A stretch of DNA of 64,000 nucleotides, from NCBI RefSeq assembly GCF_009914755.1, contig NC_060947.1. One strand, written 5' to 3'. Below are positions 9,664 through 64,000 of the stretch, piece by piece; the stretch's first letter is position 1, and every line of letters begins with the position of its first letter. The DNA is from the human T2T-CHM13v2.0 reference genome, Homo sapiens. The notes beneath the pieces were generated by a model. The model worked only from the letters and a program-made list of their open reading frames with translations, made no database searches and was not told the DNA's origin. The translations under genes were made by a program, and so were the position numbers.

Positions 9664-9672
9664 GACCTGTGA

Positions 9673-10068
<396 letters not shown>

Positions 10069-24012: not shown

Positions 24013-24076
24013 CTGTAGTCTGATTCCCCAGACTCCCATCTCCTGTATACTCGATCAAGCAATAATCCCAATACTG

Positions 24077-25133: not shown

Positions 25134-26042
25134 TGATGCAGGATACTTTCTTGACCCCTTCACAGGACACATGACAGGGGTGCCCAGCCACTTTGGCACC
25201 AGCAGGAGCAAACTCCTTTTCCTTGGGCCCACCACACCCCACCTCTCACGGGATGGAGCATGTAGACAAGTGAGTGTGGCAACTGGCCAGCTGCTTTGGC
25301 GCTGGCAGGAGCAACCTCCATGCAGGCACTGTGGCACCATCTGGGTAGGAGTGCCTGCAACCCCAAGGCCCCAGAGTGCATGTTACAATGCTCTGTTAGC
25401 TCCACCATCCATGGACAGCAGTGTGTTATCAGCTCAGTGGGACCTTTGCCTCATCGCATGGGGTGGCTGCCCTCTGTCAGCAAGGGCAAAGGGCCAGTGT
25501 GACAGCCTTTTTGGGTACTCATACTTGGTGCGTCCCAAATTCTTGTCTGGTGCCCAAGAAGAATGAGGTCACACAGACTAATTGAAGTGAAGGATGGTGA
25601 GTGCAGAGAATTTTGTTTTGCGATGAAAGCAGCTTTCAGGGGAGAAGGCAGCTGGAAAGGGGACGTGAAGGGCAGGTCACTCTCCCCTGAAGTCAAATCG
25701 CCTCTCTGCCTCTCTCCTCGGAAGTCAAATTGCTTCTGCCCGACCTCTAGCTGTCATCTCTGAAGTCAAGTCACTTCTCCTTGATGTCCGGCTGCTTCTC
25801 CTCTCTAGTGGCTGAATCTGGGGTCTTTACAAACATGGGACATGGGGCAGGATGGGCCATAGGTGGTTTTGGGAAAGGCAAAATTCGATTGGTAAAAAAA
25901 TATTATTCAGAAAAAACCAATTGGCAGGGAGTGGCCAAGATGGGATAGAAGTCCTCACTTCAGGCTTTTCAGCTTGAAGGTGGGGTTGCACCAAGGACTC
26001 ACCCTTGTCTGCCTAGAGTTTCTTTGCCTCCTGCCTGTATCA
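25134..26042. mobile_element. ERV1-type solo LTR (LTR1/27/28/MER52 group)
   Basis: TG...CA ends (tgatgcagg...tgtatca), flanks ttta/ctta as imperfect 4-bp TSD; internal 'ccaagaagaatgaggtcacacagac'. Confidence 0.65.
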
Positions 26043-26148
26043 CTTAGAGAGTTGATGTAAGACTGAGGTAGGAAGGAAAAGGGTTTTGCTGGCCTTGCCA
26101 GCTGAAAGCAAACAGTTCCTCCTGATCTTTAAAAAACATGTTTAGAGA

Positions 26149-27071
<923 letters not shown>

Positions 27072-28576
27072 AAACATGTATAGAGAAAAACACAGTCACA
27101 TGATCTCACACACACACACAAACATATATGTGTGTATATATGCATACATAATGTTAAATTTCTATCTAATGTTAAACATCTGTATAAAAGGGAGCTGTTA
27201 TGTAAAATTGGTCGGATATAGTATTTTTACAGGACTATGCTCTCTGTATAAGGCTATTATCTCAGTATAATACCGGACAAGGAGTGAAACATTTCTGGAC
27301 TTGCTAAACCATATTTTGTGCTACAAGAATAGAGTGGAAGCACCCAGTGAGGGTGCGTTTGCCAAAATGCTGCCCTCAGTAAGCAGAGAGGCTCTCACCC
27401 CAAATACCTGAGGCTCCTGGGTCTGGGCAAGGAGCAGCCCTGTGCAGCAGGCAGGCTGGACATTTGGCTTCTTAGACTCTGTTCCAGCCCTAGCTGCCTA
27501 TGACCTGAGATTTGTCTTTCCCTTCTTGGGGCCTCATTTGTAATATCTCTGGAAAATGGCAATCCCGGGATAACTGATGTCTGACGTTCCTTGTGGCCTT
27601 GACAGTCGTGTCTGGGGAGATTGCTTTCCCTGGCCACAAGAGCGGTGTGTTTCTGTAATTCTTTTATTCTAAAGATTTTTGAAAGCCACTTTGTTGGAAC
27701 ACCAATCATTTCCCATCAGGAGCTTAAAGCAATCTTCAGACACTCGTTATGATGTTTCCTTCATTCAACAAATGTTCCTCAAGGGTTTTCCAGTGCTGGT
27801 TCTCTCCTAGACACTGGGGAGATGATGGCGAAAAGGCCACATGGTTGGCATTTCACCATCTTATGCATTAGGGTGCCTCTGGTTGCAATGAGCAGAGAAT
27901 CTCCCTGCCTGTGGGAGTAGCCGAAGACATCACACATTGAGAAGTCTGCAGGGAAGCAGGCAGGGTAGGGCCAGGACTTGGTTCAGATGAAGGAGGCAAA
28001 ATTTTGGGGGAAAGCAAGGCACTTGGTAATCAAGATGAGGAGTAGTTTGCCATAATTTTTCAAAAATCAAAATTAATACAAAACATCCACAATGAACAAT
28101 ATATCAAAATTTAAAATAAAGGCAGGATTTGCCCTTGCACCTGCAGAGCCCTGAACGTTGTGCACGTGGAGGGGACACATGGGTGCCACAGTCCTACTAC
28201 TTAAAAACGTCTCACTTGCAATTTTCTGTGAAGGCCACTGCTTCCTTCTGAGGGAAGCTGGCAATTGTTCTCTTTCTATGCTCATGCAATCCATATTGCC
28301 ACAGGGTGGAAAAAAGAAATAGTTTGATTTAATTACAAATATGTCTGTGCAATTTTTGAAAATATTCTAAAGAACCCTCAAGTAGGTCGTGAAAATTTTA
28401 TTCCTTAAAATATTTGACTTTTCAGAAATAGAATTTCATCAAATATGAAACATTTTCTGAAAAAGTATTCTTTCCAAGGAAAATAGCAATTATCAAGAAA
28501 CTTTTGTACTTTATTCACTGAAGGCAGTTATGAAAATTACACTGGTGTTCACTTCATTTTTAAAAAATTAATTTTT

Positions 28577-28883
<307 letters not shown>

Positions 28884-29509
28884 TTAATTAATTTTCAAGA
28901 GTTTTTTAAAGTCAGATTTGTTCAGAAGCCTGGTGTGAAATTTTTTACTCTTCATAACTATTTATTTTTTATCTTTATATAAATTTCTATGTACATCGGT
29001 GTAATGACTAAATATTTCAAAAGAATCCATAATTAATTTAAATTACTTGATTATGTGTTAGCACATTTATTCTACATGGACTATATCAATTAAAAGTAAA
29101 TATTTTTGTCAATTATGCTACAATTATTTAGAGAGTTAAGGCACCAAAGGTAAGTGATGTAATGTTCAAGAATGAAGTAAAATGCATGTGGAAATTCATC
29201 AGAATTACAGGATTCACTCAGTTATGAGAGTGACTAGAAGAAAGTATTGCAGCTACTGAAAATAAATGTTTTCCTGTCATTGACATTATTAGAATAGAGT
29301 TACCCTCAAATCCACTGAAAACTAAGGAAACTTTTTGAAATCGTGGGAAGAAATTGAAGGAGAGTGTTAGATATTTCAGAAACATGTTGACGTTTGAGCT
29401 AATGAAACAAAAGGGGTTTACTGGAAAGAATATGGACAAAACCAAGAACAACATGCAGATTCTAATGTATTCATATAATGACTGGAGATTTTTTAAAATA
29501 CAGGTGTGT

Positions 29510-29800
29510 GGCCGGGCACGATATCTCACACCTGTAATCCCAGCACTTTGGGGAACTGAGGCGGGAGGATCACTTGAGCCCAGGAGTATGCGACCAGCCT
29601 GGGCACCATGGCGAGACCACATCTCAGCAAAACATACAAAAATTAGCTGGGTGTGGTGGTGCACACCTGTAGCCCTAGCTACTCAGGAGGTCAGGAGGAT
29701 TGTTTGGGCTCAGAAGATCGAGGCTGCAGTGAGCTGTGATCCCAATAGTGCACTGACTGGGCAACAAGTGAGGCCCTGTCTAAAAAAAAAAAAAAAAAAG
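29510..29800 (+). mobile_element. Alu (AluJ-like)
   Basis: ggccgggcacg...ggatcacttgagcccagg...gaggctgcagtgagc, poly-A tail. Confidence 0.88.
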
Positions 29801-29829
29801 ACATTTATTCCAAATAATATATGTCTTTA

Positions 29830-30079
29830 TCTGGTTCTCTGTGAATAATTATTTTTAGCAGTAATACGACAGAATCAGATGCATGAAACTCAAAAAAGTG
29901 GGTTCACAGATTGGAAGAATTGAAATAGAATTTGGAAACATGAGAATTTCCTGTTCCAGCATAATGCTTTTCCAAAATGGAGGTGTATTATGGTATGTAT
30001 ATGCAGACTCATAGCTTAATAGATGATGGTTTGCAGAAGGTGATGAAATCAACAAAAGTGGCAGAATATTTTGGAGTGT
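29830..30079 (+). mobile_element. Decayed hAT (Tip100/Zaphod-like) transposase, N-terminal part, cut by the ERV
   Basis: Reads GFTDWKN*NRIWKHENFLFQHNAFPKW and QQKWQNILEC, resembling the GFxxWK...HExS region of hAT/ZMYM1-like transposases. Confidence 0.55.
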
Positions 30080-30671
30080 TGTTGATGGCTGTTCTGAGAC
30101 ATTGGTTCTTGCTTTCTTAGTTTAAATGAATTTAAACAAGAGGCACATAGCAAAGGAGATGCAGCATAGAGTAATTTATTGCAAAGGAAAAAGAATATTT
30201 TGAAAGTTAGCTGCAGAATACACACTGAGAAACACAGAGAGGATTCAGGGCTGGCTGGTCATAAGGATGAGACAGCATTCATTATTACTGGGGAAACTCC
30301 CTTTATGGGAGTCTTACATGATTATTCTTAAGGAAGTGGGAAGATGTGTTACTAGCAAACATGTTCTGGGTGGTCCTCTGGGTGTACATGCTCATCCATG
30401 CTCATTCATACATCACATGTCTCATTAGCATTTTAAATCTCCACCCAGGGGTGTGTTTTTTACTATTACAATAAGCAAAGGGTCAGTTTGAGGACAGGTG
30501 AAATCAAAGTGCACATGCTCTCTACAGAGGAAATTCCCTACTGAAGATAGCTTTGCTTGAATGAGCTTAACTACAATGTGAATGCTGAGGCTTATTGTGT
30601 TGGCTGTATGGTCCCCACGGTTGCTGCATGCCAAGGTCATGGTCACTTCCTTGACTACTTACCCTGCCTCA
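30080..30671 (-). mobile_element. 3' LTR of provirus copy A
   Basis: Reverse complement starts tgaggcagggtaag and ends ccatcaaca; matches LTRs at 54386-54990 and 63808-; polypurine tract adjacent. Confidence 0.9.
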
Positions 30672-31215
30672 ATTCCGCCTAAGAGATCTTAGGGCCTATA
30701 ATCATATGGGAGGTTGAGGGGCTAGGTCATTTCTTCTGAAGCTGCTTCCTGCTGAGTGGGGCGTTGTCCCTGCCTAGCCTGGGCCCTAAAGTCTCTTCCT
30801 GCCTGATCTAACGCGGTGTGAACCATGTTGTTCACGGGACTGGTGCACAAGACCTGAGATAGCTCATCAGGAGACCAAGGTTAAAAGCCTTGCAAAACCG
30901 TCATGTGGAGCTGAAATTGCTGTAAGCAAGAAACTAAGAAATCAGCATTTTAAACAAAATTGGACCAAAAGTTAAAGCTTAAAATATATTAATGACTGGC
31001 AGTGTTAAAGGGAGCAAGGCAGACAATAGCTAATGCTTCCAAATTCCCATTGAATTTACTAATGTGTATTGACTGTTGGGGCTGATATCCCCATTCTGTG
31101 GGCCAGTGAGTTTGTCCCTGGAGATGTGTTAGGAGCCAGGCCAGTCTTATAATGGCCCAGATCTGTCATATCCCCAAATTTTGGTATTTATGCAATGTCA
31201 ACAAGGTTTAGTTAA

Positions 31216-39800: not shown

Positions 39801-42079
39801 CTACACATCAGTGGGCAAAACCTTGTGGGAACCATGCTTTTCCACCATCAGAGAAGACCTACTTTAAAGCAAAAGCTCTTTTGAGAATCATCAGGTTGTG
39901 TCTGGCATGGCAGCCTGGGCAGGGACATTATACCACAGGTTATTGCCATTCCCCCCTCACCAAGTCTCCTAAAAGCATCTGCTGGCTCTGGTGGCCCTGT
40001 CTGGTTGTCCTCAACCGTCAAGATTTGGATTTACCATTTACCGACAGTGCAACTTGGGTCATCACCTCATCTTCTTTGGCCTGAACTTCCTCACCAGTAA
40101 AATGGGGTGAGTAACTTCTACTCCATGGAATCCTCAGGAGGAGTGAAAGAGGTGTAACATTCCGAGTGTCTGTACCATGCCTGGGCATAGTTGGCACTCA
40201 GAAAATTTGTGGGCTAACGATGAGGGCAAAGATGAATGATACTAGCAGGGCTCATCAGTGCTGCGTGACAACTACAGAGAGACAGACTCTGATGACCCCT
40301 AACCCCCAGGAGAAACTGAAAAGGTACAGAGATGTCCGCCATGGAGTGCAGCCTGTGGACAGGGCAACAGGCACTTTGGAGGCGGAAGACAGCCCGATTT
40401 AAGATGCTTGACTTGAGCTTTAAGCAGAATCTCCACTGTTTAGTGTGAATTGATTTTTCTGAGTATCTCCCTTGGAAAAGAGACTACTGTTCTAGGTGTA
40501 GGTTTTCAAAAGTAAGGACATCCCTTTTTATACAGGCTCCCTGTTGCAGTAATATAAAGCATCTGCCAAGGGACACTTAGCCTTCTGTTACAGTCTCTTG
40601 AACCTGGTTCAGAGGTGCATCATACTTTAAGGTGAAAGGAGTTTTTGCCATGGACTTCTTCACTTGGCAACACAAAATCTTCACACTTTTCAGTTTGTGG
40701 ATTTCAGTTTAGTAAGAAATCTAGCCACCCTTTTGTGTAGTAGACTCACGTTGCTGTAGAGTTCTTAGAGCATGGGCAGTGGAATTAGAAACACCTGGGT
40801 TTAAATCTGGGTTCAGCTGCCAGCCAGTTGTCTGACCTTGGGCAAATGACTTAATCTCTCAAGGCTCAGTCTCCTCAGGGGTTAAGTAGAAACCATAGCT
40901 CCTATCTCAAAAGGTTGTGTGGGGATTGAAGGTGAGCATGAATGTAAGAAGTCATAGGCAATGCCCAGCATGTTTTCATTGCTCATGAGATGTCCTCCCT
41001 GGGTTGGTATGGCATATAGGAAATGGTTATGGCCAAGTACCTAATAGTCGTTGCAGCTCTTGGGCAGAGCGAAGTTCAGGATGGGTCATTTGCTGATTTT
41101 CAGTGATCTGTTCTGGGGTAAACAGAGTGAAGTCTAGCCCGGAAGGCCAGCAATAAGCTGAGTGAGGGTAATTTGGCCCTGGCAGGAGGGAGCTTCCTAG
41201 GAGTACTCAGAGCTGAGAGGCTGTGGCAGAGGCAGAAGCAGAAGATGGGAGCCAAGCCTTCCTTCTCCTGAGAGACCCTATAAGAGACGAGTGAGTGGAG
41301 AAAGTTCTGGAACCAGGGTCATGTGATGAGTAGAACAGGATGAGAGGCTGTGTGTCAGGAGGAGCCTAAAGCTGGAGTGTATGGTGAGGCTGCACTGGAC
41401 AAGTGGAAAGTGCTTTGGGTTCAAGACAGAGCTGGAGATGAGGTGCTGCTACAGGTATGCACTTACATGCCTATGACCTGGCACTAGTTACTTAACCTCT
41501 CTGTGTTTCCATATCCTCTTCTGTAAACAGAGGATGATAACAGCAGCTATTCTCTAGGATTGTGGTGAATAGTAAAAAAAAAAAAATCCGTAATTCATTT
41601 ATTCAATATTGACTAAAAACTCTCTGAGTGCCAGGTACTTATCTAGGCATGAAAAAAAACAGTGAACTAAACTGTTCTCATGAATCTTACATTCCAGCTG
41701 AGGGCAAATGCACTAAAGAAAGAGAGCAACTATGGAATATGTTATTGGCCAAAAGCAGAAATCAGGTGGAGAGATGGAACATGAGTGGATGGTACTTTGA
41801 ACCTGGTAGTCAAGGAAGGTCTCTCTGAGGAAGAGACATCTAACTTTAGTCAAGTGTAAAGGGCCTTGTGCATTTAGATTTGCTCTGAAGGGCTCAGCTT
41901 CTGCAGAGTTCCCTCTCCTCCAAGGTGAGAGAAAAAGGAGGGACACGGATTTTAGTAAGTCTTCCTTCAAAACCCTGTAAGACTAAAGTTTCCACCAGCC
42001 CCAAACTAGAGGGTACATGGGTGTGACCCATTAGTAGGCATAAAATTTACCTTAACAACTACTGATTTTTTTAATGCTG

Positions 42080-43136
42080 ATAGGCAGAAACCTAGAGACT
42101 TTGTGTGCAAATAGTTCTTGAGGGTGGGGTATGAGGTGGAAGAAAAATTAATTTGATTCACACCAAACTTATTGCTATATAGTCATTAAGCCAAGGGTCA
42201 TTAAGCCAAGGCTCTGGATTCAGTGTTTCTCTTTGAGAGGATAAGGATGGCTCTAGCAGTTTGCTTGGTTGGTTAGCTAAAATGAGAAACCGAATGTTGA
42301 CTATCGTCAATTAAGGAGAAGTTCAAGGACTTCCTTGATATACTCCAAAGGCTTAAGGACATTGGAATGTGAGAGTGACTTTATCCTGGAAGAACTGCTC
42401 AGCCACGCTGGATGTCCAGATGATGTGACTTTCACCAAGGCTGCAAGAAATTACTTGGTAAGGGGAGCCCAAAAATCTGTGAGGAGATTGTGGTGGCTCT
42501 CTTCTTTAATCAGACATTACTGCAGGCTTGCCCTTGAGGAAAGATCATGCTGCACTGCCAAATAACAATGCTGTTAATCCTTGTCCCCACCTTCCCCAAC
42601 AGACCTGTGGCCAATTATTAGTGTGGCAGGTCATGGTGGAGAAGTAAATAATCAGAATTCTCAGGAATTACTTGATAATGGCTCTGAACTGGTGCTAATT
42701 CCAGGATACCCAAAATGTCACTATGCTCTTCTAATAAGAGTTGTAGTTTCTGGTAATCATGTGATTTTACATCAGGTAATCCATGTGGTTTTACATCAGG
42801 TCCAACGTACAGTGGACTAAGTTGGTCCATGAATCCACCCTCTGGTTGTTTCCCAGTTTCAGAATGCATAGTTGGGATCATACTCAGTGACTGGCAGAAT
42901 CCCCACATTGGTTCTATGACCCGCAAAGTGAGGGCTACTATGATGGAAAGGCCAATTAGAAGCCACTAGAACTGCCACAATTATAAAAACTATAATCCAC
43001 AAGCAACACTACTTTCTTGGAGGGACTGCAATAATTGGTGGTAACACCAAGCATTTGAAGGACACAGGTTGGTGTGATTCTTCAGCCATCCCTTTCAACT
43101 GAGCTATTTGTCCTGTGCAGAAATATATGGATTTTT
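42080..43136 (+). mobile_element. Decayed ERVL-like internal fragment
   Basis: ORF remnants 'PDDVTFTKAARNYLVRGA', 'LLDNGSELVLIPGYPKCH' resemble ERVL gag/protease. Confidence 0.6.
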
Positions 43137-43228
43137 GGCCAGGCACAGTGGCTCATGCCTGTAAACCCACAACTTTGGGAAGCCGAGGCGGGAGGATCAC
43201 TTGAGGTCAGGAGTTCGAGACCAGCCTG
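43137..43228 (+). mobile_element. Alu left arm cut off at a rearrangement breakpoint
   Basis: ggccaggcacagtggctc...gagttcgagaccagcctg then an abrupt switch to inverted SAGE intron sequence (cagttttctagaaattatttcatg). Confidence 0.88.
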
Positions 43229-43399
43229 CAGTTTTCTAGAAATTATTTCATGAAGCAGGAGAGGGTATCAGGTGGCGATCTGAAAACACTCAAATTGAGC
43301 TCACGAAAGAAGGTACAACCAAACCACCTTCTTCCCTTGATGACACTATGCATGCATATGAAAATCAAGTAGGACAATCCAACTTATAAGCAAACATAC

Positions 43400-46300
43400 A
43401 CAGATCCCTGGTACTCATGGCTGGAATGCCACGTGCTGCCATGTTAATGTGCCCTGGTGGAAAAGCTAACAAGACGTTATTAAGTTATGGTTGGTCATTT
43501 TCCATCCTCTCGTCACAGACATTATCAGTGACGGTGGCATCTGGAAACCAAATGTAGAGGTGGAGCTGTGAAGTAAGTGCATTATTTCAACCCCACAGGT
43601 ATATTCGTCTGATACTCAGCTTCTAAGAAATTATTGCACGAAGCAGGAGGACATGACAGGTGGCGATCTGAGACTCCTCAAATTGATCTCAAGAAAGATA
43701 ATACAACAAAACTACCTTCTCCCCTTCATGACACTATGCACACATATGGAAACCAAGTAGGACAATCCAACTAAAAAGCAAACATACACAGATCTCTGGT
43801 ATTCATGGCCAGAATACCAGCTCATGGTGCAGCAGTTGAGAAGACGTTATCTAGTTGGCATTGGCCATTTTCCATCTCCTCTTCGTGGACATCGTGAGTG
43901 ATGGTAGCATCTGAAAACCAAGTGAAGAGGTCGAGCTGTGAGATAAGTGTATTATGGTAACCCCATAGGTATATCTCTCTAATGCTCAATTTCTAGGAAA
44001 TTCTCTCATAAAGCAGGAGGATATATGAAGTGGTGATCTGAGACCCCTCAAATTGAGGCCAGGAAAGATAATACACCAAAACCACCTTCTTCCTCACCTG
44101 TCCTTCTTCCCTATGAATGCATATGGAAACCAAGTGGAACAGTACAAATAATAAATAAACATACACAGATCCCTGGTACTCATGGATGGAATACCAGTTG
44201 CTTCCATATTAATGAGCCCTGGTAGAACATTTGATAAGATGTTTTGAGGTGCTGGTTGGCCGTTTTCCATCTTCTCTTCATGGACATTGTGAGTGAAGGT
44301 AGCATCTAGAAACCAAATGAACAGGTTGGGCTGTGAGAAAAGTGCATTATGTCAACCTCACAGGTATATCCCTCTCATGCTCAGTTTCTAGGAAATTATC
44401 ACATAAAGCAGGAGGAAATACCAGGTGATGATCAGAGACCACACAAATTGAGCTCGCGAAAGACAATACAATGAAATCACATTATTTATGACACTGCATG
44501 CATATGAAAACCAAGTAGGATAGTAGAACTAGAAAAGAAACATTAGGATAGTACAACTAGTAAACCAACATACGCCTATCCCTGGTACTCATGGGTGGAA
44601 TACCACCTCCTGCCAAATTAACAAGCCCTGATGTAACAGTTGACAAGACATTATCAGGTGCTGGTTAGCCATTATTTATATTTTCTTCATGGACTTTGTG
44701 AGTGACTGCAGTATCTGGAAAGAAAATGAAGTGGTTGGGCTATGAGGTAATCGCATTATGTCAACCACACAGGCTTACCCTTCTGATGCTCAGTATCTAG
44801 GAAATTATCTCATAAAGAAGGAGGATACAACAAGTGTCAATCTGAGAACCCTAAAATTGAGGCCAGAAAAGGTAATACAACAAAACTGCCTTCTCTCATG
44901 ACCCTATGCATGCATATGGAAACCAAGTAGGACAGTACAACAAGTGAACGAACTTACACTGATCCCTGGTACTCATGGATGAAACACCAGCTGCTGCCAT
45001 ATTAGTAAGTGCTGGTGGAACAGTTGCGATGACATTATCGGGTGCTGGTTGGCCATTTTTTGTCTTCTCTTCATGGACATTGTGAGTGACAGTAGCATCT
45101 GGAAACAAAATGAAGAGGTTAATTTTTAGTTAAGAACATTATGTGAAGCCCACAGGTATATCCCTTTTATGCTCAGTTTCTAGAAAACTATTTCATAAAT
45201 CTGGAGAGGATATGTCAGGTGGTGATCTGAGAACACTAAAATTGAGCTCATGAAAGATAACAACGTGTCTCCCATGCATGACATGAGGCATGCATATGAA
45301 AATCAAGTAGGACAGTTCAAATTACAAGCAAACATACACTGATCCCTGGTACTCATGGCTGGAATACCAGCTGTTGCCAAATAACTAAGCCGTAGTGGAA
45401 GAGTTGACCTGACATTATTAGGTTGTGGTCGGTTATTTTCCATCCTCTCTTCACAGACATTGTGAGTGACAGTAGCATCTGGAAACCAAATGAAAAGGTT
45501 GAGCTGTGAGGTAAGTATATTACGTCAACCTTACAGGTATATCCCTCTGATGCTCAGGGTCTAGGAAATTATCCCATAAAGTAGGAGGATACACCAGTTG
45601 ATGATCTGAGACACCTCAAATTGAGCTCACAAAAAAGAATACCACAAAACCACCTCCTTCCCTTTATGACACTATGCATTCATATGGAAATCAACTAGGA
45701 CAGAACAACTAGTAAACAAAATACACTGATATCTGGTACTCATGCCCAGAATACCGACTGCTGCCAAATAAATAACCACTGGTCGAACAATTGACAGTAC
45801 GTATTAGGTTGCAGTTTGTCATTTTCCATCTTCTATTCACAGACATTGTAAGTGACAGTAGAACCTGGAAACCAAATGAAGAGGTTGAGCTGTGAGGAAG
45901 CACATTATGTCAGTCCCACAGGTATATCCCTCTGGTGCTCAGCTTCTATTATATTATTGCAAAAAGCAGAAGGACATGACAGGAGGTGATCTCAGATGCA
46001 TCAAATTGAGCTCAAGAAAGATTATACAACAAAACTTCCTTTCCTCTTCATGACAATATGCAGGCATATGGAAACCAAGCAGGACAATTCGACTTATAAG
46101 CGAACACACACAGATCATTGGTGCTCATGGCTGGAATATCAGCTCCTGTCATATTAAGACCTGTTGGAGCAGTTGAAAAAACGTTATCAGATTGGGGTTG
46201 GCCATCTTCCATCTTCTCTTCAGGGACGTAGTAAGTGATGGTAGCATCTGGAAACCAAATGAAGAGGCTGAGCTGTGAGGTAAGTGTATTATGGTAACCC

Positions 46301-48536
46301 CACAGGTATATCTCTCTGATACTCAGTTTCTAGGAAATTATGTCATAAAGCGGGAGCATAGAGCAGGTTGCCATCTGAGATCCCTGAAATTGACACCAGG
46401 AAATATACAACAAAACCACCTCCCACCCTTTTTGACACTATGCATGCATATGGAAACCAAGTAGGATGGTAATACTAATAAGCAAACTTATTTGTACACG
46501 GATCCCTGGTACTCATGGATGAAATATCAGTGGCTGTCATATTAATAAGCTCTGGTGGAAGAGTCAACAACACGTTATCAGGTGCTGGTTGGCCATTTTC
46601 TATCTTCTGTTCATAGACATTGTGAGTGACGGTAGCATCTGGAAACCAAAGGAAGAGGTTGAGCTGTGAGGTAAGTGCACTATGCCAACTCACAAGTATA
46701 TCCCTCTGATGCTCAGTTTCTATGAAATTGTTTCATAAAGCAGGAGGATATATCACATGGTGATCTGAGATGCCTTAGATTTAGGCCAGAAATGATAATA
46801 CAACAAAACCACCTTACTCCCTTCATGGCACTATGCATGCATATGAAAACCAAGTAGGACAGTACAACTTATAAGCAAACATACAAAGATCTCTGGTACT
46901 CATGGCCGGAATATCAGCCGCTGCCATATTAATAAGTGCTGTCAGACCAGTTGACAAGTCGTGATCAGTTGGGGTTGGCCATTTTCCATTCTCTCTTTGT
47001 GGACATTGTGAGTGACGGTAGCATCTGGAAACCAAATAAAGAATTTGAGCTGTGAGGTAAGTGCATTATGTCAATGCCATAGGTATGTCCTTCTCATGTT
47101 CAGTTTCTAGGAAATCATCCCATAAAGCAGGAGGATATATCAAGTGGTGGTCTGAGATCCCTCAAATTTAGGCCAGAAAAGATAATACAATAAAACCACC
47201 TTCTTCCCTGCATTACACTGCATGCGTATGGAAACCATGTAGGACAGTACAGCTGGTGAACAAACATACACTGATAAATGGTACTCATGGATGGAATACC
47301 AGCTGCTGCCATATGACGAACCTGTGGTGGAATAGTTGACAAGACGTTATCAGTTTGGGGTTGGCTGTTTTCCATCCTCTCTTCACCAACATTGTGAGTG
47401 ATGGTAGCATCTGGAAACCAAAGAAGGAGGTTGAGCCGTGAGGTAAGTGCATTATGTCAACCCCACTTGTATATCCCACTGATGCTCAGTTTCTAGGAAA
47501 CTATCCCATAAAGCAGGAGAATACATCAAATAATGATCTACATCCCCTCAAATTGAGGCCGGGAAAGATAATTCAACAAAACCATCTTTTTCCCCTCATG
47601 ACACTACGGATGCATATGGAAACTGAGGAGGACAGTACAACTAATAAATAAACATACATAGATGCCTGGTACTCATCAATGGAATACCAGCTCCTGCCAT
47701 ATTAATAAGCCCTGATAGAACATGTGACAAGATGTTATGTGGTTGTGTTTGGCCATTCTCCATCTGCTCTTCATGGACATTGGGATTGACGGTAGCATCG
47801 GGAAACCAATTGAAGAAGTTGAGCTGTGAGGTAAGTGCATGATGTCAACCCCACAGGTAAAGCCCTCTGATGCTCAGTTTCTAGCAAATCATATAAGAAA
47901 GCAGGGGAGGATATGCCAGGTGGCTATTTGATGCCCCTCAAATTGAGGCTAGGAAAAAATATACAACAAACCATCTTCTACCATTCATGAAAATATGCCT
48001 GCTTATGGAAACTAAGTAAGGCAGTACAACTAATAAGCAGACATACACAGATCCCTGGTACTCGTGGATGAAACTCCAGTTGCTGCCATATCACCAAGCT
48101 GTGGTGGAGCAGTTGACAAGATGTTATCAGTTTGGGGTTGGCCGTTTTCCATCCTCTGTTCAAAGGAAGAGGTTGAGCTGTGAGGTAAGTGCATTATGAC
48201 AACGCCACTGCTATATCCCACTGATACTCAGTTTCTAGGAAATTATCCCATAAAACTGAAGAATATGCCAGGTGGCCATCTGAGCCCCCTCAAATTGAGC
48301 TCACAATAGATAATACAACAAAAGCACCTTTTCCCCTTCATTACGGCATGCATGCATATGGAAACCAAGTAGGACAGTACAACTAATAAACATACACAGA
48401 TCCCTGGTACTCATGGATGACATACTAGCTTCTGGCCTATTAAATAGTCCTGGTGGAACAGTTGACAAGATGTTGTCAGGTTGTGTTTGGCCATTTTCCA
48501 TCTTCTCTTAATGGACATTGTGAGTAACACTAGCAT
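43400..48536 (-). pseudogene. Partial SAGE-family pseudogene (repeat exons only, 14 units); probably one of SAGE2P/SAGE4P
   Basis: Exons (- strand) 48536-48396, ~48161-48047 (acceptor deleted), 47798-47658 (AG>CG), 47410-47270, 47024-46885 (-1), 46638-46498, 46247-46110, 45864-45725 (stop, -1), 45478-45338, 45098-44958, 44714-44574, 44305-44165, 43910-43788 (stop), 43540-43400 (stop). No N- or C-terminal exons adjacent. Confidence 0.88.
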
Positions 48537-50844
48537 CTGGAAACCAAGTAAAGAGGTTGAGCTGCAAGATAGGTGTATTTTTTCCCACCCTCCCCCCAGA
48601 GGGACAGCTATGTATGAATCAGTTTCTAGGGAATTATTTATATCATGAAACAGAAGGATATACCGTGTGGAAATCCCAGATCTTGCAATCAGAGATCAGG
48701 TGAGATAATAAAATAAAACTACCTTTTTACCTCTTGGCATAATGAATACATGCAGTAAACAAGTACGACAGCAGAATAAACATTCACAGGTTTCTTGTAC
48801 TCATCATTTTGTATCATCTCGCTGCCCTTTACAATTCTCACTTGATATTATTTTTATAGTTCACCTATAAATGCCATGCTGTACACAGCAGGAAGCCAGA
48901 CTAAGTGAGCCCTCCTTAACCTGCTTCCTATCTATCTCAAATATTCTGAGAAAATAGAGGTGGCTATTAGAACCGAGCACTCTATCTCCACTCTATCATC
49001 AAACATCCCTGTTTTTATATGATTCTACAGATCCTTCCCTTTTGTCTAGAAAAAAGTGACTTTATTTTCACTCCGTGTCTGACACCTCTTTCATTTATTC
49101 ATCATCTGTGGCAGCCTGCATGCCAGAAGCTGGGGATCAACAGTAAATAGCCTATATAGCAGCGTTCCCTGCCCTTGTGGAGCCCAGCCAGTATCATTCA
49201 TCTTTGCCCTCATCATTAGCCCACAAATTTTCTGAGTGCCAACTATGCCCAGGCATGGTACAGACACTTGGAATGTCTCATCTCTTTTACTACTGCTGAG
49301 GAACCTGTGCAGTAGAAATTCCCCACCCCACCTTACTGGTGAGGAAGTGCAGGCCAGAGAAGATGAGGTGATGACCTGTGTCCCACTGTCAGTAAATGGT
49401 AAAGCCAAATCTTGATGGTTGAGGACAAACAGACAGGGCCACCAGAGCCAGCCGATGGTTTTAGGAGCCTTGGTGAGGGGGGATGACACTAACCTGTGTT
49501 CTAATCTCCCTGTCCCTGCTGCCATACCAAACACAATCTGATGATTCTCAAAAAAGCTTTTGCTTTAAAGTAGGTCTCCTCTGAAGGTGGAAAAGCATGG
49601 TTGCCACATTGCCCACAGATGTGTAGCATGTCCACAAATATACTTGATGTTCTGCTTAAAGGTGGGATATCCAATGTATGTAATACATTAGTCTCAGAAC
49701 CAGAATGAAGAAGTTTCTGAACAAGTTACAGAACATAAAATTATATATACAGAGATCTTTGTATTTGAGAAAGTTCCAATTGCTCTGCAAGACCTGTGAG
49801 GGAGAATAGTAAATGTGATGCCCTATGAAATGTAAAAAGGGGTACATAGATATTTGCATTTTCACAATGTCTTCTACGTAGCCAGCAGTGGGCTGTACTA
49901 ACCTATGTTTGAACCCAAAGGGGCAGCGCCTACATCAGAAGTCAGCATAGCCACTGTGGGTTTTTTCTGAACTGGGAAGGAAAGATTTAGGATGGATCGG
50001 TGCCCTGGGGACACCAGAATCTGTCATCTACAATGCCAGAGTGTGCTAGCAGGTCCTAGGGCCTCAACATTGTGTTCCCTAAGTGGACAGCTGAGAGCCC
50101 AACAAGCAGGCTTACTGGAAGAGTCCAATCCAGGTGGTTCCCCCTGGCCAATCTCTTTAAGAAAGAGGGAAGAAAAAGAGATACAAAGAGCAGATTTGGG
50201 TCTCTTATGGAATAATATTTGCAAGGTTATGTAAATTCCAGAATTTAGAAAAATACATGAAAGTTTTGGTAGACTCCAGATTTTACAAGTTCCAGAAGTG
50301 CTGGTCAAGGAAACTGAGCAGAAGTGCAGTCCCACAAAGCTGGGACAAGTCTAGGGAAAAGGGCTTTAGGGAATGCTGTGAACACAGGCTGAGGGCTCAT
50401 CCCCTGTACATCAGCTAGCAGGTTGGCAGCAAGACCAATCCCAGGCTGTGGCTGCTGGAGGAACAGGAGAAATCATGGGTTTCTGCCTTGGCCAGCCCCA
50501 ACTCCACGATGAGCAGGGTGGATATTGTGGATGGAGGCCCAAAAAACAAAAACAAAAACCCAAATCATAATCTTAGACCTTTCAGCCAAGAAGGACTGAT
50601 GATGCAATCACAGAAGGGATAGTTGAAAGAGCTTTGCATGGTGAGGACCCTGCTTCATATTCCTAACCACGCTTGGTGCCACCTACCTGCCCCTGTCTTG
50701 TCCATCCCTGTGCTGAAGCCACTCCACCTCTTTGATGTTCCTCAAACATGACAGGCATGTGTTTGCTGCTGGGCCTTAGTAGTTGTTCTTTCCTCTGCCC
50801 AAATCACTGTTTCTCATTTTGTCCATTTTTCTTTATTTTTTAAA

Positions 50845-50972
50845 AAATTTTTTGTAGAGAAGTGGTCTTGCTATGTTGCTTAGTCTGGTCTTGAACTCCT
50901 CGTCTCAAGCAGTCCACCTGCCATGGGCTCCCAAAGTGCTGGGATTACAGGCGTGAGCCGCTGTGCCTGGTC
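50845..50972 (-). mobile_element. Alu monomer (FLAM-like)
   Basis: Single-arm Alu text; only its 3' half survives in arm A at 38484-38560. Confidence 0.75.
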
Positions 50973-51609
50973 ATCTATTCTATCTCTTTAAATATCACTT
51001 CCTCAGAGAGACCTTTTTGTCATACCATCTGAAGTAAGACCCTCAGTGATTTCAGCCCCTTGTTTTCATCGTAGCACTACAACTTGCAGACTATCTATCC
51101 GTGTCGTGGTTCAGTGTCTCATTTGTGGGCAGGCATTGCTACCTGACTACCTTAGCATTGCTACCTGACTACTTACTATCTATTCCCCTTTCTCCCTCTC
51201 TATTGGAACCCTGATTTTGTTTTGGGCAGACTTTTAAAAAATATTTTCCATCTCAGACTCCTTTGCGGCAAGGGTGGTCCTCTGAACCTAGTTGTTGAAA
51301 GTGCGATGTCAGCTGAGATGGTGTGGGAAAACCTCTGCTTTCAGAGCCACCCCTACCTTCTTCCACTTCTCTCCTTTTTCTATTCCAGGAAGAGTCACTC
51401 ACGATGCTGAATGTGGGGAGCCCTAATCCCCCGCCCTTACTTAGTGCTATGTGGAGTCACACTGGAGCCCAAGGCATGGGGAAAATGTGCACCTTGATAA
51501 AAATAATTTCATATATTTATAAACAATTAGTGTTTCCAGAACATTAAAGTTGTCACAAAGATATTGAAAATTTGGAAAGTAGGTGAACAAACCTTACAAT
51601 ATTATTTTA

Positions 51610-52122
51610 TTTATTTTTTTATTATTTACTCTCTCTCTCCATATATATATATATATATATCCATATATATATCTCCATATATATATCCATATATATATCT
51701 CCATATATATATATCCATATATATATCTCCATATATATATATCCATATATATATCTCCATATATATATATCCATATATATATCTCCATATATATATATCC
51801 ATATATATATATCCATATATATATATCCATATATATATATATATCCATATATATATCTCCATATATATATCTCCATATATATATCTCCATATATATATCT
51901 CCATATATATATATCTCCATATATATCTCCATATATATATCTCCATATATATATCCATATATATATCTCCATATATATAGCTCTCTCCATATATATATCT
52001 GTATATATATATACCTCCATATATATATCTGCATATATATATATCTCTCCATATATATATGTATATATGGAGAGAGATATATATCTATATCTCTGTGTGT
52101 GTATATATATATATATATATAT

Positions 52123-52158
<36 letters not shown>

Positions 52159-52434
52159 ATATATATATACACTCTGTCAGCCAGGCTGGAGTGTGGTAGC
52201 ACAATACAGCTCATTGCAGCCTCAACCTCACAGGTTCAAACAATCCTCCTACCTCAGCCTCCCAAGTAGCTGAGATTACAGGCCCACACCACCATGCATG
52301 GCTACTTTTTGTATATTTTGTAGAGACGGGTTTTGCCATGTTGCCCAGGCTGGTCTTGAACTCCTGGGCTCAAGGAATCCACCTGCCTCGGCCTCTCATA
52401 GTGCTGAGATTATAAGCGTGAGACACTCAGCCCA
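51610..52434 (-). mobile_element. AluJ-like element containing an expanded microsatellite
   Basis: Alu body 52172-52434, T-rich tail near 51610-51628; TSD caatattatttta at 51597 and 52439. Confidence 0.8.
51630..52170. repeat. Compound (TA)n/CC(AT)n micro/minisatellite, ~540 bp
   Basis: Units such as ccatatatatat(ct) repeated dozens of times. Confidence 0.97.
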
Positions 52435-52439
52435 CCTGC

Positions 52440-54385
<1,946 letters not shown>

Positions 54386-54990
54386 TGAGGCAGGATAGGA
54401 AGTCAAGGAAGTGACCATGTCCTTGGGACAGAGCAATCATGGTGACCATACAATCAACACCAATAAGGCTCAGCATTCCCATTGTACTTAAGCTCATTCA
54501 AGCATAGCTATCTTCATTCGGGAATTTCCTCTGTAGACAGCATGCGTACTTTGAGTTTACCTGTCCTCACACTGACCCTTTGTTCTTTATAATAGTCGAA
54601 AACACATCCCTGGGCGGAGATTTAAGATACTAATGAGACATGTGATGCATGAACAAGCATGGACAGCTACTGCAAATATGCACCCAGAGGACCACCCTGA
54701 ACATGCTTGCTAGCTACACTTTTTCCCACCTCCTTATGAATATTCATATAAGACTCCCATAAAGGGAGTTTCCCCAGTAATAATCAGTGCTGTCTCGTGC
54801 TTTCAAACACTCCACCCTAAATTCTCTCTCTGTCTCAGGGTATACTCTCTATTCTGCACTTAGATTTGAAAATATTCTTTTTCCTTTGCAAAAAAAATTG
54901 CTCTGTGCTGCATCTCCTTTGCTGTGTGTCTCTTGCTTAAATTGTTAAACTAGGAAAACAAGAACCGAGGTCTCACAGCAGCTGTCAACA
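54386..54990 (+). mobile_element. 5' LTR of provirus B
   Basis: tgaggcaggatagg...gctgtcaaca (TG...CA), homologous to 63808- and to 30080-30671. Confidence 0.92.
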
Positions 54991-54994
54991 TTTC

Positions 54995-55012
54995 TGGTGC
55001 CGTGACACAGAT
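54995..55012 (+). promoter_or_regulatory. Primer binding site, tRNA-His
   Basis: TGGTGCCGTGACACAGAT, 16/18 match to TGGTGCCGTGACTCGGAT (complement of tRNA-His-GTG 3' end), 4 nt after the LTR. Confidence 0.85.
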
Positions 55013-55869
55013 AGAAGTTTGTCTGCTTCATTGACTTCAGTTTCCCTGCACCCGTGATGTGTCCTATGGCAGTCCCAAACTACCTGGTTGAGTATGACTG
55101 CTTTTTCTAGGGCTTTTTCCTTGAAGTTGTGGGGAAAACGTTTTTAAGTCACCTATATTCTTTATGTGAATATATGTGCTGCTCTACTTTTGGCTGCGAC
55201 TTCTGCACTATTCATAATTATACTAACCATGCGGGTTGCCCTCAATATTCAATATTCAGGCTATTTTGCTGCTTAGTGTCACATGTTTCTGGCCACATTT
55301 CAGACTCAGCACGTTTGTTGTCCCTCTGGCAATACTTGACTGCCACTTTGTGGCTATTGTGATTTATATTCTAATCTGATTTTCTACTGACAAAGCTTTC
55401 TGTTTTGAGGGGCACATTAAGAGTCCCTATCCTGCCAGGCTTTATGCATTTTCATACTCCTTCAGATTGTCCTTCCACAAACTTTCTATGCTGAAAAAAA
55501 ATATGTGCAGTTATGTAGATGCCTGGTACCAGGGATTGCATCCAGGCATTTTTGGTATTATAACTACTGGAATGCCTGGATTGCATCCAGGCATTCTTGG
55601 TATTATAAACGGCAAACCAGTGAGGTAGGGAACGTCTTGTCAGAGAGACACCTGGGCCCCCCAGCCAGCAGCAGGGGCTGCCTTGGTTGAGCCTGGAGAT
55701 GTCCAGTGCTGGTGAGACCTAGGATGGTGCATAGCAAACTCTGGTGACATCCTAGGGCCTCGGTCTCATGGGGATTCAAGCAAATACCCTGTACCACTTC
55801 ATGGTCTAGCTCGGCTCATGGGGACACCAACAACCTCCTGGACTTTGGTATATGTGTCCATCATTGCAG

Positions 55870-57470
55870 GATTCTCTTGGCACCATTGGACTCATCTCCT
55901 CTACTCTCACTGAAACACCCATGGGATTTATATTTTAAAAACTGGCATATCATTTGGTTAGATGAGCTAAAAAAGGAAAAAAAAACCTCATCTTCTTTTG
56001 TCACACTGTTTGCCCTGGGTACAATTAAGCAAACAATGAAAAATGGCCACAGAATGGAAATGTGAACTTTAACACCACAGATCTTTTCTGTACAAATCAG
56101 GGTAAGTGGTCTCAAGCACCCTGTGTGCAGGCCTTTATGGCCTTACAACAGAACCCAGCTCTATGCAGCACCTGTGGGCTAAAATCCAGTATGAAAGAAA
56201 TCCACGCAGAAGCATTAGAATATTTTCTTTCATTAAGGGGAAAGGACCCCAGGACCCACAGTCCAACACCAGTTCCACATAGGGGCTCTCAGGGACTCAC
56301 ACCTCCTTCCGAGTCCAGGGCACCCCCCACACTATCAGAGTCTTCTGGAGAATCTAATCCCATTTCAACTCCTGCTTATGCTCCTCTTTATCCTTCTTGC
56401 TTTGTACACTAGGGACTAGCCCAGCTGGAATAACTCGCAGTGGGACTTCATAGCAACCAGGGCCAGTAAAACTGCTCCCTTTAGGGGAAGTCCAAATGGA
56501 GAAGGGACCATTAGAGTACATGTTCCATTCCCAATAAATGATCTAATCCAGTGCAAGCAAAACCTCAGACTGTTCTCAGAGGAAGCCAGTGCATTTACCG
56601 ACACATTCCAGGCTCTAACTTTGGCCTTCGACTTAACTTGGAAAGGTATACAAGTTGTCCTTTTTCTTGCTGTACTCCACAGGAACAACAAAGAATCTGG
56701 TTAGCCAGTCAGAGATACATAGATAGCAAGGAAGCTGACCAGCCTGCCACCCATGAAGTGGCAGCTATTGCTGATCTCTCCCTGGACCTACATTGGAGTT
56801 ACAACAGGTCTGGAGGAATAAAGAAAAGGGATGGACTACATGGTCCAATGCCTCCTGGCAGAAATCAGACAATGTATTAAAAATCCTGTTAACTAAGAGA
56901 AAGTCAAAGTAGTCATACAGGGAAAAGATGTAAACCCTGCTTTCTTTCAGGGGTGCTTAATGGAGGCCTTCCAAAAGTACACCAACATAGACCCTACATC
57001 TGCTAAAGGCCAAGTGTCACCAGGACAAAACTTTATTAGCCAGTCTACCCCAGACATCAGGAGAAAACCACAGAAATTACAATTAGGGCCACAAACACCT
57101 GTCCCTCAATTTTTAGAAATGGCTTTTGGAGTATTTCATAATAGGAATCTGGCTGAGGAGGAAGGCAGAGTCCAGATCAAGAACTGGTGAGATAAGGCCC
57201 AGGATAAAATGACAGCTGTCTCTGACAATAGTGTCCTGCCACCTTAAAGTCACCCCCAGGAACCTTGAAGCTTGGAAACCGGTCAACAGCAAGGTAACAA
57301 CAATTAAGGAGCCTCCTTTCAATGCAAACAATCAGAGCACCAGGCCAGAGGGTTCACCCAGCTGCCCCTGGGCTATGGCCAGTCTGTAAACAAGATAGCC
57401 ATTAGGAAATGGATTTTCCTCAGTCCTGAAGGGGAAAGGGGACATCCTCCCTCGAGATGGCACTAATTCA
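55870..57470 (+). pseudogene. gag: ERV gag remnant
   Basis: QGKWSQAPCVQAFMALQQNPALCSTCGL; EAFQKYTNIDP...FISQSTPDIRRK.QKL (capsid); degenerate zinc knuckle near 57320. Confidence 0.8.
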
Positions 57471-57479
57471 AGACTGAGG

Positions 57480-61560
<4,081 letters not shown>

Positions 61561-61800
61561 CTTTGCAATAAACCTTTACAGGAACCAGAGGAAGCTACTA
61601 ATTACACCTGCCAGCCCATAAGGGCTCTAAAGCTTCTATTCAAGAACACAATTCCAGATAAAGCCCATCTGGAAGATAAGTAACATCTTCATTTTCTTGG
61701 TACTTGCCTGCTGTACTCCAATGACTTTTAGAGAGACTGGCCTATCTGCTGGGGAACTAATTAACCATACTGTTAGTCTATTAAACTTAACTGAGGCCTA

Positions 61801-63700
<1,900 letters not shown>

Positions 63701-63807
63701 CTAGGCAGGGACAACGCCCCACTCAGCAGGAAGCAGCTTCAGAAGAAATGACCTAGCCCCTCAACCTCCCATATGATTATAGGCCCTAAGATCTCTTAGG
63801 GGGGAAT

Positions 63808-64000
63808 TGAGGCAGGGTAAGTAGTCAAGGAAGTGACCATGACCTTGGCATGCAGCAACCGTGGGGACCATACAGCCAACACAATAAGCCTCAGCATTCA
63901 CATTGTAGTTAAGCTCATTCAAGCAAAGCTGTCTTCAGTAGGGAATTTCCTCTGTAGAGAGAACGTGCACTTTGATTTTACCTCAAACTGACCCTTTGCT
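63808..64000 (+). mobile_element. 3' LTR of provirus B (runs off window end)
   Basis: PPT aggggggaat then tgaggcagggtaagtagtcaaggaagtgacc. Confidence 0.9.

What the first reader, a model, noticed from the sequence alone, without database searches (positions are those of the whole stretch)
43229..64000. Inverted AND permuted duplicon: 40253 joined to 11971 by a 4-bp microhomology (circular-intermediate signature)
Seen: read on the - strand from 64000, this block first matches + strand ~30.5k to 40253 and then jumps back to 11971 and runs on to ~18666. The junction reads gatactggctgg-GCTC-cacaaggg (GAGC at 49180-49183); the donors are gatactagcagg-GCTC|atcag (40250-40253) and gtga|GCTC-cacaggg (11971-11974). 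Inference: a tail-to-head join of a ~28-kb unit arises either from an excised DNA circle that reopened inside the SAGE array and reinserted inverted 3 kb from its donor, or from a tandem duplication later inverted. Either route splits a SAGE gene into repeat-only and C-terminal halves, a possible way of creating C-terminal-only genes such as CT45 (speculative).
Basis: partly seen in the sequence, partly recalled or inferred. Interest (0 to 1): 0.85.

Follow-up and report, generated by a model that had tools for sequence, protein, structure and literature searches.

The report
Old SAGE pseudogene duplication breakpoint
A real four-base join between the tail and the head of a SAGE pseudogene unit on human Xq26 marks where a second, partial inverted copy was laid down behind a complete one during ancient segmental duplication. 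It is an ordinary kind of breakpoint and does not point to a reinserted DNA circle.

Summary
Read on the minus strand, 64000-49180 matches 30474-40253 and 49183-43229 then matches 11971 onward, joined through a shared GCTC. The junction is unique in the genome (1 of 17 hits spans it). It is also derived: SAGE1, SAGE4P, SAGE2P and INTS6L run colinearly through the donor points.

The circle reading fails its own test. To the right, the inverted copy does not stop near 18.7k. It runs through the whole array, past 11971, to -885 as the complete SAGE2P unit. The minus strand therefore holds more than one unit. No Alu remainder exists, because the only nearby copy of that Alu and its flank is an intact part of the CT45A5 unit.

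The junction is a head-to-tail duplication breakpoint at the inner end of an old inverted repeat (SAGE4P arm against SAGE2P arm). SAGE3P is a promoterless, repeat-only second copy, cut off bluntly against a truncated Alu. One complex template-switching event or several stepwise events remain possible.

CT45 was not made this way. It carries a single unamplified repeat unit, colinear with INTS6L. This is an ordinary kind of feature and interest is low.

The parts
49180..49183 (-). Junction: GCTC on the minus strand, shared by the tail (40253 equivalent) and the head (11971 equivalent) of the SAGE unit
   Evidence: It is unique in the genome: 1 of 17 hits spans it, and that hit is the locus itself.
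40250..40253 (+). Tail donor site in the SAGE4P unit
   Evidence: The left unit and the SAGE1 locus both continue colinearly past it (38469-41966 to u41477-44961, 90%; base level).
11971..11974 (+). Head donor site in SAGE4P intron 2
   Evidence: SAGE1, SAGE2P and INTS6L are all colinear through it.
43229..49183 (-). SAGE3P fragment: a second, partial inverted copy made of about 1.0 kb of unique intron sequence (48163-49183) and 12.7 array units (43233-48162). It has no 5' exons and no C-terminal exons.
   Evidence: no PF15300 match falls inside 43229-64000. RefSeq annotates only 43404-44712.
49180..62258 (-). Tail part of the complete inverted unit, equivalent to 31065-40253. It is 81-90% identical to the left copy.
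   Evidence: The end part (49184-50915) has only 3 full-length copies in the genome.
50916..55186 (-). Extra sequence relative to the left copy. Part is shared with the SAGE1 locus. It also holds two Alu-like stretches and a 605-bp dispersed repeat (54386-54990).
62259..63412 (-). Segment present here and in the SAGE1 locus but deleted from the left copy, which has only 31067-31218 at this place
   Evidence: 62077-64669 to u36527-33924 forms one colinear alignment at 89%.
63413..64000 (-). Start of the high-identity part of the right arm. It continues outside the window to 103097 and contains SAGE2P.
   Evidence: 96-97% identity.
40254..43228 (+). Spacer: the 3' flank of the SAGE4P unit itself, colinear with the SAGE1 locus. 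It ends 92 bp into an Alu (43137-43228).
   Evidence: Only two copies exist in the genome.
43228..43229 (.). Second non-homologous junction: the truncated Alu joined bluntly (0-1 bp microhomology) to the inverted array
12587..19947 (+). SAGE4P tandem array of 387-bp units. Each unit is homologous to one single-copy 390-bp stretch of INTS6L.
21522..25682 (+). A 4160-bp run with no difference from the inverted right arm (about 78822-74662, outside the window)

Best explanation
SHOWN. The region is an old inverted segmental duplication. The left arm is the SAGE4P unit, -885 to 40253 on the plus strand, followed by its own 3' flank up to 43228. The right arm is a complete inverted unit, 103097 down to 49180. 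It consists of SAGE2P plus the tail part that fills most of the finding's block.

Between the arms lie 3 kb of SAGE4P flank and a second, partial inverted copy, SAGE3P. SAGE3P runs from the 11971 equivalent through 12.7 array units. The join at 49180-49183 is where the tail of the complete copy meets the head of the partial copy. The permutation is therefore only apparent: the window shows the end of one inverted copy followed by the start of another.

INFERRED. The join was made by a homology-independent process using 4 bp of microhomology. That process was either end joining or a replication template switch, of the kind that makes head-to-tail duplication junctions. It was not recircularisation and reinsertion. 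I put about 0.8 on this general reading.

Within that reading I lean to one complex replicative event (about 55:45 over separate steps). In it, synthesis left the SAGE4P flank inside an Alu and copied backwards from the array to 11971. It then switched at GCTC to 40253 and copied backwards to -885. It then switched again into a third tail copy at 103098-108550.

The event is old. The copies differ by about 10-15%. The outer arms were later partly homogenised by arm-to-arm gene conversion. The fragment has no promoter exons and no C-terminal domain, so it was dead on arrival.
For: - The junction and its donor sites are seen at base level.
- The junction is unique: 1 of 17 hits spans it, 14 match only the head side and 2 only the tail side.
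- The SAGE1 locus is colinear with the left unit from 2143 to 43228, through both donor points. INTS6L is colinear through the head donor.
- The right arm is colinear with -885..31065 at 103097..63413 and runs unbroken through the array and through 11971. It is also colinear with SAGE1 across 63413.
- The donor sites share no extended homology: 27% in register.
- The neighbouring junctions are blunt, at 43228|43229 and 103097|103098.
- No further copy of the unit's C-terminal and middle part exists: only 3 full-length copies of 20000-23600. Sequence 40254-43113 has only 2 copies. A full second copy, if it ever existed, has left no trace.
- The three tail copies form an unresolved trichotomy at 84.6-87.1% identity (2474 columns). 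This fits a near-simultaneous origin.
- SAGE3P branches first among the SAGE copies (support 89/85, 659 columns).
Against: - One event and several steps cannot be told apart from one genome.
- A one-step replicative event should resume in plus orientation on the original template. I did not identify such a resumption point.
- Gene conversion has reshaped identities. Left against right ranges from 88 to 100%, and left against SAGE1 reaches 96-98% just upstream of 11971. The trees and the dating are therefore soft.
- Because the outer right arm has been converted, its original state next to the tail part is not directly preserved.
- Head-side divergence (10.3% over 630 bp) is somewhat lower than tail-side divergence (13.7% over 2474 bp).
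Confidence: 0.8

Rival explanations
1. Stepwise history. This is a sub-variant of the best reading and is counted inside its 0.8, not in addition to it. First an inverted duplication of the whole unit took place. Then a tandem duplication of 11971-40253 occurred inside the right arm. Finally a deletion of at least 25 kb at the centre of the repeat removed the rest of the second copy and the right arm's own 3' flank. That left SAGE3P abutting the Alu.
For: The head-to-tail join is the classical mark of a tandem duplication. The first copy sits in its native colinear context. By recalled knowledge, the centres of large inverted repeats are prone to deletion.
Against: It needs three events, one of them a deletion with exactly the right limits. 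No remnant of the lost part exists anywhere in the genome.
Confidence: 0.35
2. A 28-kb unit was excised as a circle, closed at GCTC, reopened inside the array and reinserted inverted into the Alu at 43228.
For: A tail-to-head join with microhomology and a truncated Alu at the left end of the block are what a circle insertion would also show.
Against: - The minus strand holds more than one unit. The head segment and array occur twice, at 49183-43229 and at 84951-80386, and the copy runs on to -885.
- There is no break at the 18.7k equivalent.
- There is no Alu remainder. The only nearby copy of that Alu and flank is complete, inverted, and contiguous on both sides within the CT45A5 unit (92% to the next CT45 unit across the point).
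- The tail part is colinear with SAGE1 into the neighbouring sequence.
Confidence: 0.05
3. The tail-then-head order is ancestral, and the SAGE4P and SAGE1 units are the rearranged copies.
For: A permutation is symmetric in principle.
Against: Four loci run colinearly through the head donor: SAGE4P, SAGE2P, SAGE1 and the parent gene INTS6L. Two run through the tail donor. They share the same flanking bases. Only one locus has the join.
Confidence: 0.02

Closest known systems
Head-to-tail breakpoints of segmental or tandem duplications made by non-homologous end joining or microhomology-mediated joining
   Same: The tail of a unit is joined to the head of the same unit in the same orientation. 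The microhomology is 4 bp with no extended homology. The first copy lies in its native context.
   Different: The second copy is only 5.95 kb of a 28-kb unit. The whole structure lies inverted beside the source unit.
Complex replicative rearrangements (FoSTeS/MMBIR; duplication with an inverted segment). The literature is recalled and was not read here.
   Same: Several non-homologous junctions with 0-4 bp of microhomology lie within a short distance. All segments are copied from one template of about 44 kb, in inverted orientation.
   Different: These are known mostly as recent pathogenic copy-number changes. This one is an ancient, fixed structure, and a single origin cannot be shown here.
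Large X-linked inverted repeats or palindromes carrying testis genes, with arm-to-arm gene conversion
   Same: Inverted arms of about 41 and 54 kb carry cancer-testis pseudogenes around a spacer of about 8.9 kb. Identity is mosaic and includes a 4160-bp run without any difference.
   Different: Overall arm identity is far lower: about 94% in the outer part and 81-90% in the inner part. It is not the 99% or more that I recall for catalogued palindromes. The genes are pseudogenes.
Reintegrated extrachromosomal circular DNA
   Same: A circle junction and a tandem-duplication junction look the same at base level.
   Different: The content exceeds one unit, and the two halves of the target site do not flank the block.

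Membership tests
Head-to-tail (tandem-type) duplication junction | The tail of a unit is joined to the head of the same unit in the same orientation | tested here: met
Head-to-tail (tandem-type) duplication junction | Both donor points are internal to sequence that is contiguous in paralogues or the parent gene | tested here: met
Head-to-tail (tandem-type) duplication junction | The first copy lies in its native colinear context, so total content exceeds one unit | tested here: met
Head-to-tail (tandem-type) duplication junction | The second copy is complete | tested here: not met
   It is cut off at 43229 inside the array. The rest is absent from the genome.
Reinserted DNA circle | Exactly one circularly permuted unit | tested here: not met
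   The head segment and array are present twice on the minus strand, and the copy extends to -885.
Reinserted DNA circle | The insertion is flanked by the two halves of the target, here the Alu | tested here: not met
One-event replicative rearrangement (MMBIR/FoSTeS) | Two or more clustered junctions with 0-5 bp microhomology, and segments templated from nearby sequence | tested here: met
   Junctions at 43228|43229 (blunt), 49180-49183 (4 bp) and 103097|103098 (blunt).
One-event replicative rearrangement (MMBIR/FoSTeS) | All junctions arose at the same time | not testable with these tools
   This needs other primate assemblies. The trichotomy of the tail copies is compatible with it but is no proof.
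Inverted repeat with arm-to-arm gene conversion | Tracts of near-identity set in an older, diverged background | tested here: met
   Window identities of 88-100% and a 4160-bp run without differences.
Inverted repeat with arm-to-arm gene conversion | Arms almost identical over their whole length (threshold recalled) | tested here: not met

The most novel reading that the evidence does not exclude
Three minus-strand pieces may be the fixed fossil of a single germline replicative event with repeated template switches back into the same 44-kb template. The pieces are SAGE3P (array back to 11971), the complete unit (40253 back to -885) and the third tail copy (about 38.5k back to 32.2k). The event would have occurred in an early anthropoid ancestor. 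It would have created the inverted repeat, which still exchanges sequence today.
Probability: 0.35. Interest if true: 0.35.

Novelty: new member of a known kind. Interest (0 to 1): 0.2.

Why it matters
The result gives a base-level account of how the SAGE2P, SAGE3P and SAGE4P pseudogene cluster beside INTS6L and CT45 is built.
- SAGE3P is 5.95 kb (43229-49183), not the 1.3 kb that is annotated.
- A permuted-looking duplicon is not evidence of a DNA circle unless its content is exactly one unit.
- The SAGE array is a 19-fold tandem amplification of one 390-bp, exon-bearing stretch of an INTS6L-derived copy. CT45 keeps the unamplified state, so CT45 did not arise by splitting a SAGE gene.

None of this changes current ideas about segmental duplication. 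It is a worked example of a known process.

Tried and rejected
1. A 71-kb inversion between 43228 and about 114927. This was suggested because SAGE1 sequence u47936-48733 reappears inverted at 114927-114084. I rejected it for three reasons.
- That copy holds the Alu from its first base, so it overlaps rather than complements the 92 bp kept at 43137-43228.
- The flank is a standard part of every CT45 unit: self plus 9 copies at 85-87% identity among 16 hits.
- 114084-116979 is contiguous at 92% with the next CT45 unit across the supposed breakpoint.

2. A clean young duplication layer ending at 31065/63413. I rejected this in favour of mosaic gene conversion.
- Left-against-right identity varies from 88 to 100% window by window.
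- The right arm is colinear with SAGE1 across the point.
- The left copy simply has a 1.2-kb deletion there.

3. Recombination between similar repeats at the two donor sites. I rejected it because in-register identity is only 27%.

4. Matching SAGE3P array units to particular left-array units. All registers score about 75-80%, so the true endpoint in the array cannot be named.

5. Literature.
- Five searches found no paper on this junction.
- SAGE2P, SAGE3P or SAGE4P occur in 1 paper, on an unrelated subject.
- I read passages only, using term finds, in PMC1890293, PMC13616518, PMC2956734, PMC4611718 and PMC3652184.
- PMC4611718 states that CT45 shares a domain with DDX26B, INTS6 and SAGE1 and that its derivation needs study.
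- I opened no supplements.

Full report
OBSERVATION

A self-comparison of the window confirms that the block 43229-64000 is an inverted match to two separate parts of the left half.
- 64000-63413 matches 30474-31065 (96.3%).
- 62258-60419 matches 31065-32931 (88.5%).
- 60422-55187 matches 33261-38457 (about 86%).
- 50915-49180 matches 38484-40253 (84.9%).
- 49183-48161 then matches 11971-12999 (85.2%), followed by a tandem array.

Read on the minus strand, the junction is ...TGGCTGG-GCTC-CACAAGGG. GCTC stands at 40250-40253 and at 11971-11974, and the neighbouring bases differ, so the shared stretch is exactly 4 bp. Over +/-150 bp the two donor sites are 27% identical in register, which is the random level. 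This is a non-homologous join.

Three refinements apply.
- The block carries about 4.3 kb (50916-55186) and about 1.15 kb (62259-63412) that the left copy lacks.
- The array is 12.7 units of 388 bp, against 11.5 + 7.4 units of 387 bp on the left. It aligns in many registers at about 75-80%, so the endpoint of about 18666 is arbitrary.
- The last 588 bp are far more similar to the left copy than the rest.

WHICH ORDER IS ANCESTRAL

The assembly is searchable, and the window is C23:133920001-133984000. A 601-bp query across the junction returned 17 hits, all of them scored.
- Only the locus itself spans the junction.
- 14 hits match the head side alone: SAGE4P, SAGE2P, SAGE1, CT45 units and INTS6L.
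- 2 hits match the tail side alone: SAGE4P and the SAGE1 locus.

I fetched 80 kb of flanks and 60 kb around SAGE1. The SAGE1 locus is colinear with the left unit from 2143 to 43228. It runs straight through 11971 (10071-15562 to u14859-20363, 88%) and through 40253 (38469-41966 to u41477-44961, 90%).

At base level, the tail donor continues identically in SAGE4P and SAGE1. The head donor is preceded by the same bases in SAGE4P, SAGE1 and SAGE2P. The parent gene INTS6L is also colinear through the head donor. The join is therefore derived and private to this locus.

WHAT LIES TO THE RIGHT

The inverted copy continues, but not as a circle would require. The whole of -885..31065 is matched by 103097..63413. 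The block identities are 92-95% outside the array; the block that runs into the array, 10071-16514 to 86853-80413, is 85.7%. The main pieces are:
- 17071-28575 to 83265-71772;
- 10071-16514 to 86853-80413;
- 949-5922 to 95363-90473;
- -885..951 to 103097-101262.

Two insertions of about 6 kb are private to the right arm. I checked one of them, and it is a degenerate full-length L1 with ORF1 domains, an endonuclease and a reverse transcriptase.

The minus strand therefore carries a complete SAGE unit: upstream region, 5' exons, array, C-terminal exons, middle part and tail part. This unit is SAGE2P plus most of the finding's block. Behind its tail lies a second start, 11971 onward, which is SAGE3P. 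The permutation is the end of one inverted copy followed by the beginning of another.

A third copy of the tail part lies at 103098-108550. It sits directly against the -885 end of the right arm, at a blunt junction.

THE LEFT END OF THE BLOCK

Homology of the left unit to the SAGE1 locus stops exactly at 43228. That point is 92 bp into an Alu that is present in SAGE1 from its first base and continues past that point. The Alu is joined to the inverted array with 0-1 bp of microhomology.

The rest of this Alu is not found at the far side of any insertion.
- The sequence that follows the Alu in SAGE1 occurs in every CT45 unit: self plus 9 copies at 85-87% among 16 hits.
- The nearest copy (114084-114927, inverted) holds the Alu from its first base.
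- That copy is contiguous, at 92%, with the next CT45 unit on both sides of the supposed break.

This removes both the Alu-remainder prediction and my own interim idea of a 71-kb inversion.

WHAT IS MISSING

- The left unit's flank 40254-43113 exists only twice in the genome, in SAGE4P and SAGE1.
- The C-terminal and middle part 20000-23600 exists full-length only three times, in SAGE4P, SAGE2P (98%) and SAGE1.
- The INTS6/SAGE1/CT45 C-terminal domain (PF15300) has 16 matches in the genome and none in 43229-64000. The SAGE-type matches are at window 20631-20738, at 79606-79707 and in SAGE1.

SAGE3P is thus a promoterless, repeat-only fragment. No separate C-terminal half was left anywhere.

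AGE AND LATER HISTORY

On the 630-bp head segment, SAGE3P branches first among the SAGE copies (support 89/85). SAGE1 branches next, then SAGE4P with SAGE2P (85/85). INTS6L and CT45 lie on the other side of a long branch. That tree had 6 rows and 659 columns. I used one of the four fetched CT45 copies; those four gave the same BLAST alignment.

The tail end has three copies. The right copy is 85-86% identical to both others, and those two are about 90% identical to each other.

The middle tail segment was rooted with a chromosome 8 relative. Its three X copies form an unresolved trichotomy at 86.3, 87.1 and 84.6% (2474 columns, support 75/69).

These values point to a burst of duplication about 10-15% of divergence ago. 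From recalled primate divergences, I take this to predate the split of apes and Old World monkeys. That is an inference, not a measurement.

Identities have since been reshaped by gene conversion.
- Left against right ranges from 88 to 100% in 400-bp windows. It includes a 4160-bp run (21522-25682) without a single difference.
- Left against SAGE1 reaches 96-98% at 10200-11000.

The jump from 96% to under 90% at 63413 is therefore the edge of a conversion-active region next to a 1.2-kb deletion in the left copy. It is not a separate duplication boundary, because the right arm is colinear with SAGE1 across it.

MECHANISM

Shown:
- a derived, unique head-to-tail join with 4-bp microhomology;
- its position at the inner end of a complete inverted unit;
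- two neighbouring blunt junctions.

Inferred: the join was made by end joining or by template switching during duplication.

Two histories fit.
- One history is stepwise: inverted duplication, then tandem duplication of 11971-40253 in the right arm, then a central deletion of at least 25 kb.
- The other is a single complex replicative event. Synthesis would have left the SAGE4P flank inside the Alu, copied the array back to 11971 and switched at GCTC to 40253. It would then have copied back to -885 and switched again into the third tail copy.

I lean slightly to the single event. It needs no precisely placed deletion, no remnant of the supposedly lost part exists, and the tail copies look coeval. 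However, I found no resumption point in plus orientation, and one genome cannot decide the matter.

A reinserted circle is not supported. The content exceeds one unit, there is no break at the 18.7k equivalent, and the target halves do not flank the block.

CT45

The 3' 7.5 kb of INTS6L is colinear with the SAGE unit and holds one copy of the 390-bp stretch (-14725..-14336). SAGE has amplified that stretch about 19-fold.

CT45 units are colinear with INTS6L from -15449 to -12497 and hold a single unit, with no array. On the head segment they group with INTS6L, not inside the SAGE clade. CT45 therefore did not arise by breaking a SAGE array at this or a similar junction.

In print, I found only the statement that CT45 shares a domain with DDX26B, INTS6 and SAGE1 and that its derivation needs study (PMC4611718, one passage).

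COMPARISON AND VERDICT

This is a previously undescribed instance of a well-known kind of feature: a microhomology breakpoint inside a complex, ancient segmental duplication of a cancer-testis gene cluster. Five literature searches found nothing on it. The circle interpretation and the CT45 idea are not supported. Interest is low.

Noticed in passing
window 21522-25682, against about 78822-74662 outside the window: A 4160-bp run has no difference at all between the SAGE4P and SAGE2P arms. The flanks show up to 48 differences per 500 bp, and the arms are about 94% identical on average. It looks like a very recent arm-to-arm gene conversion tract.
   Followed up: partly
window 12587-19947 and INTS6L at window -14725..-14336: Each 387-bp unit of the SAGE array is homologous (75-82%) to one single-copy stretch of the INTS6L 3' region. 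The SAGE unit as a whole is colinear with the last 7.5 kb of INTS6L. The array is therefore a tandem amplification of one exon-bearing segment.
   Followed up: partly
window 10200-11000 and 30400-30800, against the SAGE1 locus: Patches of 96-98% identity between SAGE4P and SAGE1 sit in a background of 85-92%. This suggests gene conversion between direct copies about 290 kb apart.
   Followed up: no
window 54386-54990; also 30080-30671 and 63808-64394: A 605-bp dispersed repeat has at least 330 first-look candidates genome-wide, and full-length copies are 77-84% identical. On chromosomes 8, 6 and X, copies lie beside relatives of the middle tail segment (55187-59700). That segment and this repeat therefore look like an old endogenous retroviral internal part and its LTR. 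I did not check this against a repeat library.
   Followed up: partly
window 103098-108550 (outside the window proper): A third copy of the tail part (equivalent to about 32.2k-38.5k) lies in the same orientation as the copy in the finding. It abuts the -885 end of the right arm at a blunt junction.
   Followed up: partly
window 31067-31218: The left copy has about 150 bp where the right copy (62111-63413) and the SAGE1 locus (u35182-36528) both have about 1.3 kb. This is a private deletion next to an Alu, and it coincides with the drop in arm identity.
   Followed up: partly
window 65063-71213 and 95363-101262 (outside the window proper): Two insertions of about 6 kb are private to the right arm. 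The first is a degenerate full-length L1 on the minus strand, with ORF1 domains, an endonuclease and a reverse transcriptase. The second shares L1-like matches but was not checked at protein level.
   Followed up: partly
window 43404-44712 (RefSeq SAGE3P): The annotated pseudogene covers only 1.3 kb of a 5.95-kb SAGE-derived fragment (43229-49183).
   Followed up: yes
window 11940-12040 and 40190-40253: From memory, both donor sites resemble the 3' parts of ancient MIR/L2-type repeats, at different positions of the element. I did not test this, because no repeat library was available. The 27% in-register identity rules out recombination between them.
   Followed up: no
SAGE1 locus, C23:134242936-134243733: The SAGE unit of the SAGE1 locus passes into CT45-unit sequence at the same Alu that is truncated at window 43228. 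This Alu therefore marks a boundary between two duplicon types.
   Followed up: partly
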